Assembly (NCBI GenBank): GCA_964016885.1
Contig: OZ024743.1
Location: 309,876,001 to 309,940,000, forward strand
DNA from: Eledone cirrhosa
Lineage: Eukaryota
Reading direction: 5' to 3'
DNA length: 64,000 nt
Part shown: positions 3,826 to 62,125 of the stretch, in pieces
Position numbering within the stretch: position 1 is the stretch's first letter
Layout of the letters: every line of letters starts with the position of its first letter
Notes under the pieces: generated by a model
What the model was told of the DNA's origin: nothing
Seen by the model: the letters and a program-made list of their open reading frames with translations, nothing else
Database searches by the model: none
Made by a program: the position numbers and the translations under genes

Positions 3826-4478
3826 TCGGATGATCCCTCCAACTGCTTCCGACTGCTGGACTATAAGACAGCCGAGAATATATAGTTTTCTCGTCTGCGT
3901 AAATAAGGTGAATAATCTCATTTGAATATGAATCTGCATAAGTTGGCTCAACTTATAATAGAAAAGAAATAAGATTTCGCTTCAAGCATTGCTTGCGGTG
4001 GGATGGATCGTCCTGACGAAGGCCAGTTAAGCCTGAAATGCATAGACGTTTGTCCCCTTAGCTTCTGCTGGATATCACCAAAGGGCGTTAGCCCCACGGT
4101 CTTTGCATAGCTACGGCTTTCTAAAACCGTATTTCTTTGGAGATACGAAATTTCTATACATATTGTATAAAGCTATGTTTGAAGCGAAATCTTGTTTCTT
4201 TTCTGTTATAAGTTGAGCCAAATTATGCAGCTTTATATGCAAATGAGATTAATCACCTCATTTACACAGACGAGAAAACAATATATTCTCAGCTGTGTTC
4301 TAGTCCATCAGTCGTAAGCGATGGGAGGGATCGTCCCGACGATGGCCAGTTAAGCCTGAAATGCATAGACGGTTGTCTCTCTTGCTTCTGTTGGACATCT
4401 CCAAAGGGCTTTAGCCCCCTGGTGTTTGCATAGCTACGGCTTCCTACAACCGTATTTCTTTGGAGATACGAAATTTCT
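3826..4478. mobile_element. Retrozyme-like 323 bp HHR unit: about 0.5 copy on -, then about 1.5 tandem copies on +
   Basis: 3826-3995 is the reverse complement of about 4170-4340. HHR cores at 4013 and 4336 are 323 bp apart. It ends at (TC)n(TA)n. Confidence 0.8.
4009..4048 (+). ncRNA. Minimal type I hammerhead ribozyme
   Basis: CGTC-CTGACGA-AGGC cagttaa GCCT-GAAA-TGCA-TA-GACG. Stem I is CGTC/GACG and stem III is palindromic (ATGCAT). Confidence 0.85.
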
Positions 4479-4588
4479 CTCTCTCTCTCTCTCTCTCTCT
4501 CTCTCTCTCTCTCTCTCTCTATATATATATATATATATATATATATATATATATATATATATATATATATATATATATATATATATAT

Positions 4589-6092
4589 TAAGATAAGCAG
4601 AACAAGTAAGATTGAATCAATTCTTTAAAATACATTAAAAAATATAATATAAATATTTACCTCTCCTAGTGGCCCTGACTGATTAGATTTGCTTTGTAAA
4701 ACCTCATAAATCCGATGGATTTATGATGGAAAACCAAAGCTCACCAGAGAAGCATTTTCCTTTCCTAGGGCTAAACGTCGCAGGAACGACAAAATATATG
4801 ACCTCCTGCCAGCAAATAAAGGTCTGAAAGGTCGTAAAAGTGACCCCTATGTAAACTGGACCGAAGTAAAAGCGGGAAAATCAAAGACTTGCTGTCTACA
4901 ATTACAACTAAAAAAAATAGCAGCTAAATAGAACAACAGATTTGTTCTCAACATAACGGAGATAATGAATAAAGTTAATATGTCCAAGGATACTAGGTAC
5001 CCCTAGAAATACATAGGTTGTCTATGATTCAAGGTTGTTAAATTGTATTAATTTGATACACCAGAACTTTAATATTAAGATAAGCAGAACAAGTAAAATT
5101 CAATCAATTCTTTAAAATACATTAAAAAATATAATATAAATATTTACCTCTCCTAGTGGCCCTTACTGATCAGTCTCGCTTTGTAAAACCTCTTAAATCC
5201 GATGGATTTATGATGGAAAACCAAAGCTCATCAGAGAATCATTTTCCTTTCCTAGGGCTAAACGTCCCAGGAACGACAAAATATATGACCTCCTGCCAGC
5301 AAATAAAGATCTGAAAGGTCGTAAAAGTGACCCCTATGTAAACTGGACCGAAGTAAAAGCGGGAAAATCAAAGACTTGCTGTCTACAATTACTACTAAAA
5401 AAAATAGCAGCTAAATAGAACAACAGATTTGTTCTCAACATAACAGAGTTAATGAATGAAGTTAATGTGTCCAAGGATACTAGGTAACCTTAATATTAAA
5501 GTTCTGGTGTATCAAATTAATACCATTGAACAACCTTGAATCATAGACAACCTATGTATTTCTAGGGGTACCTAGTATCCTTGGAGATATTAACTTCATT
5601 CATTATACTCCGTTATGTTGAGAACAAATCTGTTGTTCTATTTAGCTGCTATTTATTTAGTAGTAATTGTAGACAGCAAGTCTTTGATTTTCCCGCTTTT
5701 ACTTCGGTCCAGTTTACATAGGGGTCACTTTTACGACCTTTCAGACCTTTATTTGCTGGCAGGAGGTCATATATTTTGTCGTTCCTGGGACGTTTAGCCC
5801 TAGGAAAGGAAAATGCTTCTCTGATGAGCTTTGGTTTTCCATCATAAATCCATCGGATTTATGAGGTTTTACAAAGCGAAACTGATCAGTAAGGGCCACT
5901 AGGAGAGGTAAATATTTATATTATATTTTATAATGTATTTTAAAGAATTGATTGAATTTTACTTGTTCTGCTTATCTTAATATTAAAGTTCTGGTGTATC
6001 AAATTAATACCATTGAACAACCTTGAATCATAGACAACCTATGTATTTCTAGGAGTACCTAGTATCCTTGGACATATTAACTTCATTCATTT
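4589..6092. mobile_element. Retrozyme-like 487 bp HHR unit: about 1.85 copies on -, then about 1.25 copies on +, flanked by (TA)n
   Basis: Units start at 4589 and 5076, the strand switches at about 5488, and the + unit repeats from about 5977. No recognisable protein is encoded. Confidence 0.85.
5815..5896 (+). ncRNA. Type I hammerhead ribozyme with long stem II
   Basis: CTGATGA(5821)-GCTTT..TCATAAATCC/GGATTTATGA..AAAGC-GAAAC-TGATCA-GTA. Stem III is palindromic (ACTGATCAGT). Confidence 0.8.
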
Positions 6093-6244
6093 ATATATAT
6101 ATATATATATATATATATGTAAATATATATATTTACATATATATATATGTATATGCATACACTTATATATATATATATATATATATATATATATATATAT
6201 ATATATATATATATATATATATATATATATGTATATATATATAT

Positions 6245-6432
6245 AGCGCTGGCCTTGGCACCTCCCCCCACTTGTCCTTTATCCTTGTTCTGGTGACTGA
6301 GCTCGATGGAGCCTGAAACCTTTGAAATATTTTTGTTTATAGGCTCTGATGATTCCTCCCATAGGGTATGGATGAAACACTGTTAGCAAATAAAACAATG
6401 TATTTCTAAGCACTCTTTGGTTATTCCTAAAC
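6245..6432 (+). mobile_element. Solo PLE 3' end (pLTR) with hammerhead (core 6346), in (TA)n
   Basis: GCT-CTGATGA-TTCC..GGAT-GAAAC-ACT-GTT-AGC. It belongs to the same family as 8341-8499 and 12169-12327. Confidence 0.75.
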
Positions 6433-7224
6433 TTATATATATATATATATATTGGAAAATGTGTGAGATTCTTGGTACAGTTAGGTATACTTGAAAAAAG
6501 GTAGATAATGACTTCACTTGTAGTGTTAACATTTTTTTGATTTTATGTTATAATATAATATAATATAATATAATAATATTATGAGTTGGTAGATCCAGTA
6601 AGTTCTTTGTTAACTTCGGTGGGAAAAATTTTAGAGATTTTTGGTTAACTTGGGTTGGAGAACTTTCTCGCATTCGTCTGTCTGTCGCGATTGTCAAACT
6701 GAGGTCAGGTTGTGTTGAAATGTATGACTATATATAAGAGAGATTTGGATGTGTCCGGGGTGTGGCGTGTGGTGTTAATGAGTGTTTTTGATGATGAAGC
6801 TAGGAGGATTTAAAGTACACATACACACACACACACACACACACACACACACACACACACACACACACACACACACACACACACACACACATATATATAT
6901 ACATTCAGAAAATGGTGAGGTTGTAAGATAAGGGTGATTGTCTCCTGCTGGTTTTATTTCATTAACTGACCTTTGATGAGTATATAATGGCATAGCTCTT
7001 CCAACTCCATAAAGAATATCTTCTACAGATTTCTACATCAAAGATGAATTTTGGTGGTTGTCTGGGTTTTAATGAGGTGTAAGATATGTCTTTTGATAAG
7101 AATGGGATGACAGCAAAAAGAGAAAAGAAGTGTAGTTTGGGAATATTTGTCAAAGATGAGTTGTTGGTATTGGTCTGGGAGAGGAAGTGTGGGAGGGACA
7201 CGTTGGCTTACATATTCACTTCCT

Positions 7225-60299: not shown

Positions 60300-60710
60300 G
60301 TATGTGTAGTATATTTGGCAATATACCGTATGTTTAATTAAACATATTTTAAAGGCTTTGCGCTATCATTTTTAAAGTAGTGACTTTGACTTACTTCTTT
60401 TTTCGGCAAAAAAAGGGAGTGAAACTGACAGATTCTGTTTCACGCTGTTTGCGATCCTCAGAGCATAATTCGCGGAAAATTATAGAGGCTGGATTCTTAT
60501 AGAATTCCAGTAATAATCAGGAACTGATTATACAGAGCAATTGCCGGTCCAGCAAAGATTAAAAATTAGCATTGTTGCTCTGAAATAGCGATGTATACAT
60601 GAATGTACGTACAGTATATTTGGCAATATACCGTATGTTTAATTAAAAACATTTTGAAGAACTTGCGCTATCATTTTTAAAGTAGTGACTATGTCACTTA
60701 CTTCTTTTTA
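60300..60710 (-). mobile_element. Retrozyme-like unit of about 305 bp (1.3 copies), diverged relative of the 310 bp unit; hammerhead at 60425-60463
   Basis: AGTATATTTGGCAATATACCG occurs at 60308 and 60613. The minus strand reads CT-CTGAGGA-tCGC aaaca GCGt-GAAAC-AGAATCT-GTC-AG. Confidence 0.8.
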
Positions 60711-60737
60711 GTGATCTATGGATGGGAATAACTAAGT

Positions 60738-60913
60738 GGACCATAACGCACCAAAGTAGTCAATAATTAGGGTAGTAGAGTGGGTAATAGGAACGAGTAG
60801 GACCCCGACGGCTGAGCTCAAGCCGTTTCGACGGCTAATTCTGGACTAAAATTAGTCCAGAATTAGCCGTCGAAACGGCTTGAGCTCAGCCGTCGGGGTC
60901 CTACTCGTTCCTA
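60738..60913. mobile_element. Palindromic pLTR fragment of the 16002 PLE family
   Basis: Perfect arms of about 62 bp at 60788-60849 and 60852-60913. Confidence 0.85.
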
Positions 60914-61049
60914 TATATATATATATATATTTATATATATATATATTCAAATATGTATATATATATATGTATATATATATATATATATATATATATATAT
61001 ATATATATATATATATATATATATATATATATATATATATATATATATA

Positions 61050-62125
61050 TTCAAAATTAATTAAATTAAATTAATTTAAGGGAGTCATGTCCGAGACATG
61101 CGCCATATCCACCGTAGAATAAGTTCAAAGATTCCAATGAATAGATCCGAACCTTTTATATCAACTAGAAATTAATTGACATATATATATATTTAAAATA
61201 AACACATGAAACAATCACAGGGGATAATTTGTAAATTGTGTAATCACACATAGCTAGGTAGGTAACTAATTAATGTTTAACTAGAGCTTCAAAAATTACC
61301 TTTTTAAAAAATGATTAATCCTCCTTGTATATATTCCATTAAAGAAATGTATTTCACCATTAATCTGTAAAGTCACAGTAGTCAAATCATGGATCTTCAG
61401 CAAGGGGGGAAGATTTAACTATCTGTGCTTACACATCAAATGCAAATCTGCGAGTGTCCCATCGCACGTGTTGCAATTCTAAAACTACTAATAACATGCT
61501 AGCGTCACGTAGTTTTAGAATTGCAACACGTGATTTGACTACTGCGACTTTACGGATTAATGGTGAAATATATTTCTTTAATGGAATATATACAAGGAGG
61601 ATTAATTATTTTTTAAAAAGCTAATATTTGAAGCTCTAGTTAAACTTTAATTAGTTACCTACCTAGCTATGTGTGATTACACACTTTACAAATTATCCCC
61701 TGTGATTGTTTCATGTGTTTATTTTAAATATATATATAAATGTCAATCAATTTCTAGTTCATATAAAATGCTTGGATCTATTCATTGGAATCTTTGAGCT
61801 TATTCTACGGTGAATATGGCGCATGTCTCGGACATGACTCCTTTAATTTAATTTAATTTAATTAATTTTGAATATATACACGGCTCCTTAATTGTAGAGC
61901 TAAATCAATTGAAAGGACTCGGCTGCTATTTATAGCTGTCAATCATCCTATTCACGCCACTGGCGTGGCGCTAGCATGATATTAGTAATTTTAGAATTGC
62001 AACACATGAGATGGGACACTCGCAGATTTGCATTTGATGTGTAAACACAGGTAGTTAAGTCTTCCCCCCTTGCTGAAGATTCGAGATTTGACTACTGTGA
62101 CTTTACAGATTAATGGTGAATATTA
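61050..62125. mobile_element. Inverted/tandem repeat with an HHR-like motif (unit of about 480-530 bp)
   Basis: 61050-61500 mirrors 61530-61875 and 61975-62120. The motif is CTGAAGA-tCCATGATTTG..CAGATTaATGGt-GAAA, but stem I is not evident. Confidence 0.65.

What the first reader, a model, noticed from the sequence alone, without database searches (positions are those of the whole stretch)
3826..62125. Window-wide rule: insertions are divergent inverted pairs with 3' ends pointing outward into microsatellite
Seen in about 18 insertions from unrelated families: 3826-4478, 4589-6092, 8341-12327, 14066-14420, 14893-15263, 16002-19631, 23201-24849, 24912-25125, 32695-34392, 34500-35485, 37925-38120, 41115-43662, 44461-50059, 50270-50448, 58148-59228, 60020-60258, 60738-60913 and 61050-62125. 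Judged by HHR or ORF polarity, the left arm is minus-sense and the right arm is plus-sense, and the same 3' sequence is present twice. Most, though not all, outer ends abut (TA)n or (TG)n. Known: PLEs sometimes show inverted pLTRs, and Naiad/Neptune associate with microsatellites. Inference: here the default integration route is priming from both ends of a break in self-complementary (TA)n on two templates, with the cDNAs joined in the middle. This differs from L1 twin priming, where the arms do not overlap.
Basis: partly seen in the sequence, partly recalled or inferred. Interest (0 to 1): 0.85.

Follow-up and report, generated by a model that had tools for sequence, protein, structure and literature searches.

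The report
Retroelements copied from both break ends
In this animal genome, Penelope-like retroelements and their ribozyme-carrying derivatives often sit in TA repeats as back-to-back pairs in which one arm ends at a short stop and the other at a longer one, which likely means both ends of a DNA cut prime reverse transcription at two fixed sites, probably on one RNA.

Summary
All 18 listed insertions are head-to-head inverted pairs (polarity unverified for one). In 60 blind 10-kb stretches from across the genome, same-family pairs were 26 divergent against 4 convergent, and only the convergent ones regularly had (TA)n between them. Nine of the first 10 copies of a young 310-bp hammerhead array are divergent. 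Inverted flanking copies, (TA)n bias and a one-ended 'tail' are already published for Penelope-like elements (PLEs).

What I did not find in print is a rule. Each family has a short (S) and a long (L) 3' end, and a pair is almost always one S plus one L: 99 of 106 typed pairs. In a genome-wide pattern count for one family, 15 pairs had the tail on both arms against 63 expected. Neither arm is nested in the other, which argues against fold-back. The arms share subfamily and private variants, so they come from one source rather than two random templates.

Best model: both cut ends prime, one at S and one at L, usually on one RNA, and the two cDNAs are end-joined. The elements fit the Hydra clade and a canonical C-terminal-endonuclease clade, not Naiad. 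Unpaired copies are common.

The parts
3826..3994 (-). left arm of a 323-bp hammerhead tandem family; left end not in microsatellite, S/L untyped
3995..4478 (+). right arm, 1.5 units, hammerhead at 4013, ends in (TC)n(TA)n
4589..5492 (-). left arm, two 487-bp units, S end
5489..6091 (+). right arm, L end (tail about 110 nt), hammerhead at 5821
8232..12168 (-). long left arm with broken PLE ORF, hammerhead at 8432, L end (boundary corrected from 8341)
12169..12327 (+). short right arm, S end
14066..14192 (-). family F06 left arm, S end
14193..14421 (+). family F06 right arm, L end
14894..15174 (-). family H34 left arm, L end
15171..15263 (+). family H34 right arm, S end; 4-nt overlap at the joint
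16002..18865 (-). family H16 near full-length Hydra-type PLE (broken RT then GIY-YIG) with upstream partial tandem; outer end S
18869..19630 (+). family H16 right arm, ends part-way into the tail
19633..19769 (-). convergent palindromic copy without (TA)n at the centre: exception to the rule
23059..23909 (-). family F21 left arm, L end (boundary corrected from 23201; inner joint lies between 23909 and 24181, not resolved)
24181..24849 (+). family F21 right arm, S end
24912..25049 (-). left arm of the 1150 family, L end
25057..25125 (+). right arm, S end
32695..33301 (-). family G08 left arm, L end, hammerhead at 32892 (inner joint not resolved)
33772..34392 (+). family G08 right arm, also L end: L+L exception
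34498..34668 (-). family H34 left arm, S end
34666..35485 (+). family H34 right arm with endonuclease C-terminal remnant, L end
37925..37987 (-). family F01 (second subfamily) left arm, S end
37988..38120 (+). right arm, L end
40740..40950 (-). unlisted pair, family G07 left arm, S end
40950..41056 (+). right arm made of tail only; starts at the S site, no overlap with the left arm
41115..41846 (-). family H16 left arm, S end
41847..43662 (+). family H16 right arm with GIY-YIG remnant (42064-42546), L end; inner boundary approximate
44461..47059 (-). 310-bp hammerhead tandem array, 8.4 units, S end
47060..47074 (.). 15-nt duplicated insert at the head-to-head joint
47075..50059 (+). same array, 9.6 units, L end (about 35 nt beyond S)
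50270..50399 (-). left arm of the 1150 family, L end
50407..50448 (+). right arm, stops short of the S site in non-repeat DNA; untyped
58148..58712 (-). family F03 left arm with partial tandem, L end
58703..59228 (+). family F03 right arm, S end
60020..60108 (-). family F01 left arm, S end
60108..60258 (+). family F01 right arm, L end
60738..60850 (-). family H16 left arm carrying most of the tail (cut about 30 nt short of L)
60852..60914 (+). family H16 right arm, S end; near-perfect palindrome
61050..61509 (.). left arm of an inverted pair, polarity not verified
61531..62120 (.). right arm with partial tandem, polarity not verified

Best explanation
These are Penelope-like retroelement and hammerhead-array insertions built of two head-to-head arms, one ending at a family-specific short site (S) and one at a long site (L), and they likely form when both ends of a cut in (TA)n prime reverse transcription, one at S and one at L, probably on the same RNA. 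Steps: (1) the GIY-YIG protein cuts both strands of self-complementary (TA)n, giving two equivalent 3'-OH ends (inferred; both-strand cutting and extension shown in vitro for another PLE, PMC11167929). (2) One end starts at S and the other at L, 35-160 nt downstream (the pairing is shown; that these are RT start sites follows that paper). (3) The L-primed cDNA usually runs past the S site, which on one RNA would need displacement of the first cDNA (inferred; PLE RTs lack RNase H, recalled); when it does not, the L arm is tail only. (4) The two cDNAs stop at variable points, often the same point as if running off one broken RNA end, and are joined through 0-4 nt microhomology or small inserts (joints shown, pathway inferred). 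(5) If one cDNA fails, an unpaired S or L copy results. On a circular or multimeric template both ends give tandem arrays. Occasionally the two ends use different RNAs.
For: L+S pairing: 74 of 80 typed adjacent pairs in six families (82 examined, 2 untyped), 10 of 10 divergent arrays, 15 of 16 typed pairs in a family of a second clade (18 examined, read by eye). Whole-genome patterns for F01: 243 short divergent pairs, 247 tail-bearing arms, 15 pairs with two tails against 62.8 expected under independence, Poisson p=5e-13. Not nested: of 63 directly abutting pairs, S reaches more than 15 nt further 5' in 24, L in 17, within 15 nt in 22; 4 do not overlap at all, and window 40740-41056 switches exactly at the S site. 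One source: shared minor alleles 96 observed vs about 19 expected; at common sites both-minor 58 vs 17 expected and discordant 35 vs 87; two arrays carry a variant seen in no other array in every unit of both arms (L277, L279). Shared 5' stop points: 10 of 36 pairs within 20 nt vs 4.7 expected with the two short families left out, p=0.005, signs 5/1/4; no array shows such symmetry. Four mixed-family head-to-head joints without (TA)n, all S+L (L151, L012, L008/L283, L169).
Against: One RNA versus two sibling RNAs from one source locus cannot be separated by sequence. 35 discordant calls remain at common sites, including F06 -40 (4 of 5 pairs) and F05 -237 (3 of 5); these may be recurrent mutation or two templates. 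The mixed-family joints need two RNAs if they are single events, yet also follow S+L, which fits an asymmetric protein complex better than a one-RNA rule. The rule is not absolute: 15 two-tail pairs genome-wide, L+L at window 32695, L290 and L198, S+S at L003, L185, L316. L arms pile up only weakly at the S site (3 of 74 within 10 nt). The in vitro paper saw no difference in start site between strands. Gene conversion between arms could inflate allele sharing and was not excluded. 5' extents rest on alignment to one reference copy per family. No empty target site, RNA or protein activity was examined.
Confidence: 0.55

Rival explanations
1. Both ends prime, but on two separate RNAs held by an asymmetric dimer in which one subunit starts at L and the other at S; the RNAs usually come from the one source locus active in that cell. 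This is closest to the first reader's model.
For: Explains L+S, non-nesting and the 4 mixed-family S+L joints without strand displacement. A dimer is predicted for the anole PLE protein (PMC11167929). Allows the discordant sites.
Against: Does not explain the excess of arms stopping at the same, locus-specific 5' point (e.g. L284, both arms at the same base about 1 kb upstream). Needs near-exclusive sibling RNAs: closely related F01 subfamily words were not mixed in about 44 readable pairs of the 50 listed (by eye).
Confidence: 0.27
2. One cDNA primed at L folds back on itself, is copied towards the target, and is cut or joined at S; later trimming of the hairpin centre blurs the joint.
For: Gives L+S and shared alleles automatically; 22 of 63 pairs are near-perfect palindromes; the window array's joint lies at the ribozyme's long stem.
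Against: Predicts the S arm is a subset of the L arm. S reaches further 5' in 24 of 63, by up to 791 nt, and 4 pairs do not overlap. Near-symmetric joints lean to neither arm. Unpaired S copies exist. Arrays show no small-loop symmetry. May still account for a minority, such as the S+S and L+L cases with mirrored flanks.
Confidence: 0.1
3. An existing inverted pair is transcribed whole and re-inserted from its L end, so the L+S palindrome is inherited rather than made at each insertion.
For: Would give L+S and allele sharing. G03 loci L171 and L179 share an identical joint.
Against: All 10 arrays and nearly all other pairs have different joints. The shared G03 joint sits on a 6-nt internal palindrome, a likely hot spot. 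Similar F01 joints occur with L and S swapped (L091 vs L094).
Confidence: 0.04
4. The arms are independent insertions into the same (TA)n tract, or assembly artefacts from palindromic reads.
For: Insertions do cluster in (TA)n tracts; the convergent neighbours are of this kind. Sequential insertion with loss of the target could explain the 4 mixed-family joints.
Against: No (TA)n between arms, same family and subfamily, 26:4 orientation bias, L+S pairing. Arms differ by up to 10%, end at different sites and have unmirrored flanks, unlike read fold-backs.
Confidence: 0.04

Closest known systems
Penelope-like elements with inverted pLTRs and a 'tail' (Craig et al. 2021, PMC8557442; Schostak et al. 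2008, PMC2377424)
   Same: [quoted passage not shown] In D. virilis the inverted-flanked form is called the most frequent structure.
   Different: Here the tail is 35-160 nt, the one-tail-per-pair pattern is counted and shown to be coupled, the arms are shown to be non-nested and from one source. Craig et al. ascribe the tail to endonuclease resolution of an intermediate.
Poseidon of Anolis in vitro (Frangieh et al. 2024, PMC11167929)
   Same: Both strands of AT-rich DNA cut and extended; two adjacent internal RT start sites that define the tail; predicted dimer.
   Different: The paper reports no start-site difference between strands and, in the parts read, does not link both-strand extension to inverted pairs; its model goes through second-strand synthesis. 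The genomic data here show the two ends of one insertion use different sites.
L1 twin priming (recalled; passages in 10.1101/2024.12.14.628481)
   Same: Two primers from the two target strands on one RNA, cDNAs joined head to head, 5' part inverted.
   Different: The L1 second primer anneals at variable internal sites and arms do not overlap (recalled). Here both starts are fixed and the arms usually overlap.
Non-LTR retrozymes (10.64898/2026.07.22.740005)
   Same: Non-coding tandem units of about 300 nt, each with a type I hammerhead, related to PLE pLTRs.
   Different: That preprint treats arrays as head-to-tail and favours local amplification; in the passages read it has no inverted arrays. 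Here 10 of 11 arrays examined are two opposed arrays with S and L ends in (TA)n, so each array looks like one insertion event.

Membership tests
Penelope-like elements | RT followed or preceded by GIY-YIG endonuclease in one ORF | tested here: met
   Broken ORFs with RT motifs then a YIG/YVG endonuclease read from translations. Pfam found no family for 9 of 10 window fragments; the Atlas gave RT/HTH_animal clusters.
Penelope-like elements | Partial-tandem pLTRs, 5' truncation, optional tail | tested here: met
   Tandem pLTR at 18572-18865, L161, L244; two 3' ends per family.
Penelope-like elements | RT phylogeny | not tested
   No tree was built.
Hydra clade (F05, F06, H16) | C-terminal endonuclease without CCHH; DKT; CxCX5C linker; CxxC and CxH around E and N | tested here: met
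   F06 shows all of these; F05 and H16 show DKT, C-terminal endonuclease, CxxC and CxH against the definition in PMC8557442 section 11. Motif reading only.
Hydra clade (F05, F06, H16) | RWK motif | tested here: inconclusive
   RWR in F06 and H16: close, not identical.
Hydra clade (F05, F06, H16) | Canonical hammerhead and (TA)n targeting | tested here: inconclusive
   Met for F05 and F06; no canonical core was detected for H16 or H34, though they target (TA)n.
Naiad | N-terminal GIY-YIG, no canonical hammerhead | tested here: not met
   Endonuclease is C-terminal in every ORF read and most families carry hammerheads.
Neptune or Nematis (family G05) | [quoted passage not shown] | tested here: met
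   Both seen in translations; which of the canonical clades was not decided.
Non-LTR retrozyme (310-bp array) | Tandem non-coding units each with a type I hammerhead | tested here: met
   Core and long stem in every unit; 4242 exact motif matches genome-wide.
Non-LTR retrozyme (310-bp array) | Self-cleavage and circular RNA | not testable with these tools
   Needs RNA data or a bench assay. All-unit private variants hint at a monomer circle but do not show one.
L1-type twin priming | Non-overlapping arms | tested here: not met
   59 of 63 pairs overlap; it works like twin priming but is not that product.

The most novel reading that the evidence does not exclude
Two-ended priming is the normal integration reaction of Penelope-like elements across clades: a protein dimer holds both ends of a double-strand cut and starts two reverse transcriptases at fixed sites S and L on one RNA, the second displacing the first, so that inverted pLTRs, the one-ended tail, unpaired copies and whole bidirectional retrozyme arrays (two rolling-circle copies from one circle) all come from a single mechanism with no dedicated second-strand step.
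Probability: 0.4. Interest if true: 0.82.

Novelty: new variant of a known kind. Interest (0 to 1): 0.63.

Why it matters
Reviews call the origin of PLE tandem and inverted ends 'still undefined' (PMC8557442). A strict one-short, one-long pairing with arms from one source turns that into a yes/no experiment in an existing in vitro system. It also suggests that retrozyme arrays can be laid down whole in one event rather than grown by local amplification, and that this route seeds a 3-Gb genome with many palindromes, which matters for assembly, annotation (they can pass for MITEs or miRNA hairpins) and genome stability.

Tried and rejected
Rfam scan: only chance miRNA-like hits on microsatellites, no hammerhead among the 150 of 230 rows shown; hammerheads were found with my own pattern (59 hits in the blind stretches vs 1 in reversed sequence). 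Pfam named 1 of 10 fragments, a LINE RT. First family mapping was swamped by (TA)n and redone with masking. DNA search with the array unit returned nothing; a pattern search worked. No RNA holder listed among sequencing runs. Laying reads on 37560-38500 was dominated by other copies of the repeats and says nothing about this locus; a second laying on the array unit did not complete. Automatic microhomology calls outside the arrays were unreliable: 27 of 61 joints came out as long apparent inserts, many from reference mismatch, so only the array joints are used. My early guess that the 5' ends are so tightly matched as to need fold-back (from F01 alone) was dropped. Arm-length correlation in arrays is not significant (rho 0.59, p=0.07, n=10). 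Folding the tails showed hairpins but no shared structure, and no shuffle control was run. Array 5' joints do not fall at the predicted ribozyme cut. Target-site duplication could not be read inside (TA)n. No complex or structure prediction was run. Earlier scan notes held nothing.

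
Full report
SETTING. The window is G000:C4:309876001-309940000 of a 3.0-Gb genome, 65% AT and rich in (TA)n. Family labels (F01, F05, F06, G03, G05, H16, H34 and others) are mine.

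THE OBSERVATION. Self-BLAST shows inverted arms at 17 of the 18 listed intervals; the 18th is two barely overlapping arms of one family. Hammerhead cores or ORF remnants put the left arm on minus and the right arm on plus wherever polarity can be read; 61050-62125 stays unverified. Outer ends touch a microsatellite at 29 of 36 listed ends, 31 after correcting two left boundaries to about 8232 and 23059. To leave the window I took 60 evenly spaced 10-kb stretches from 14 contigs and mapped hammerhead families. Of 111 fragments, 52 lay in 26 divergent same-family pairs; 4 neighbours were convergent. Dropping three doubtful divergent and one doubtful convergent case leaves 23 to 3 (p=9e-5). Every convergent pair had (TA)n between; 25 of 26 divergent pairs had none. 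An exact pattern for the window's 310-bp array found 4242 matches; of the first 10 arrays on C1, 9 are minus-then-plus, 1 is single-oriented, none convergent. So the orientation rule is genome-wide. Pairs are about 31% of insertions in the blind sample (an underestimate, since arms lacking the core are missed), 11 of 24 and 20 of 27 loci in two family searches (an overestimate).

WHAT THE ELEMENTS ARE. ORFs read RT then a C-terminal GIY-YIG domain. F05, F06 and H16 carry the motifs that define the Hydra clade; G05 has the zinc-finger motifs of canonical clades. None is a Naiad. No tree was built. The 310-bp array has a type I hammerhead with a long stem in each unit and matches the description of non-LTR retrozymes.

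Each family with enough copies has two 3' ends, S and L, 35-160 nt apart. An automatic pass over six families found 82 adjacent divergent pairs: 74 S+L, 3 S+S, 3 L+L, 2 untyped. Three of the six exceptions (L184, L161, L244) are inner tandem units whose outer ends are S and L. All 10 divergent arrays are S+L, and 15 of 16 typed G05 pairs (18 seen; by eye): 99 of 106 in all. Left/right is even (39 S-left, 35 L-left). Three whole-genome patterns for F01 tested this without locus selection: 243 short divergent pairs, 247 arms with a tail, 15 pairs with two tails. Independence predicts 247 squared over 4 x 243 = 62.8 whatever the motif retention (p=5e-13). In the window, 12 of 18 are clean S+L, one more has a clipped tail, one is L+L (32695), four are untyped.

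HOW THE ARMS RELATE. They abut with no target DNA. Array joints show 1-4 nt microhomology in 6 of 10 and 2-18 nt inserts in 4. Of 63 directly abutting S+L pairs (11 with gaps over 40 nt left out), S reaches further 5' in 24, L in 17, and 22 are within 15 nt; 4 do not overlap, and window 40740-41056 switches at the S site itself. A fold-back copy must be a subset of the primed arm, and an S-primed cDNA has no tail to copy, so both ends must be primed. The arms nevertheless come from one source: shared minor alleles 96 vs about 19 expected and 357 differences vs 477; no discordance at five sites with 34-48% minor alleles (32 pair-site calls, partly linked); variants private to one array fill every unit of both arms in L277 and L279. 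Against this, 35 discordant calls remain at other common sites (87 expected by chance), and conversion between arms is not excluded. Arms stop at the same locus-specific 5' point more often than chance, also without the two short families (10 of 36 vs 4.7, p=0.005), leaning to neither arm. This is what two cDNAs running off one RNA end would give; arrays, whose template may have no end, do not show it. Finally, 4 of 61 5' joints viewed for apparently unpaired copies are direct head-to-head joints to another family, one across clades, and all four are S+L. Many of the other unpaired copies have (TA)n at their 5' joint.

MECHANISM. Both-end priming is well supported (about 0.8 in total). I favour one RNA primed at S and L with displacement (0.55) over two sibling RNAs in an asymmetric dimer (0.27). 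Cutting, displacement, dimer and joining pathway are inferred, not shown.

LITERATURE. Eight full-text searches. Seen: PMC8557442, passages and section 11; PMC11167929, parts 1-2 of 4, the whole main text; 10.64898/2026.07.22.740005, part 1 of 5 and passages; PMC2377424, passages; 10.1101/2024.12.14.628481, passages. No supplements were read. These establish inverted 5' copies, (TA)n bias, a tail often at one end, both-strand extension and two start sites. In what I saw none states coupled S+L pairing, common source of the arms, or bidirectional retrozyme arrays. Older PLE reviews cited by these papers were not available to me and may anticipate part of it. The original twin-priming model and the lack of RNase H in PLE RTs are recalled.

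VERDICT. A real, genome-wide feature whose architecture is known but whose counted regularities are, as far as I could find, new and point to a testable integration mechanism. New variant of a known kind; interest 0.63.

Noticed in passing
window 36500-36680 and 62930-63045: Likely host exons on the plus strand (a TPR-like look, second one translated by eye); the insertions would then be intronic.
   Followed up: no
window 60259-60709: Older minus-strand relative of the 310-bp array unit, 68-77% identical, with its own hammerhead at 60461.
   Followed up: partly
window 19950-21900: Degenerate plus-strand PLE ORF with no inverted partner.
   Followed up: no
window 25400-26535: LINE fragments; 26095-26535 hits Pfam RVT_1, and the adjacent piece appears to be inverted.
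   Followed up: partly
window 26816-27235: 93-bp minisatellite, 4.4 copies.
   Followed up: no
L003; L227 and L228; window 32643-34455: S+S or L+L pairs whose flanks are also mirrored, suggesting a larger inverted duplication by another route.
   Followed up: partly
L290:4067-4601 and window 32695-34392: Family G08 and a relative give L+L twice; this family may have a third start site or a different bias.
   Followed up: partly
L223-L226 (C2, about 44 kb apart): The same S+L pair four times, a segmental tandem duplication; counted once.
   Followed up: partly
L126:1171-1669: Same-orientation chimera of two hammerhead families with no (TA)n between, possibly a template jump.
   Followed up: no
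L236, 5' joint at 2409: An L-ended H34 copy joined directly to antisense LINE RT-like sequence (read by eye).
   Followed up: no
family F06 position -40; F05 -237: Sites where paired arms often differ although they share private variants; possible RT error or mutation hot spots.
   Followed up: no
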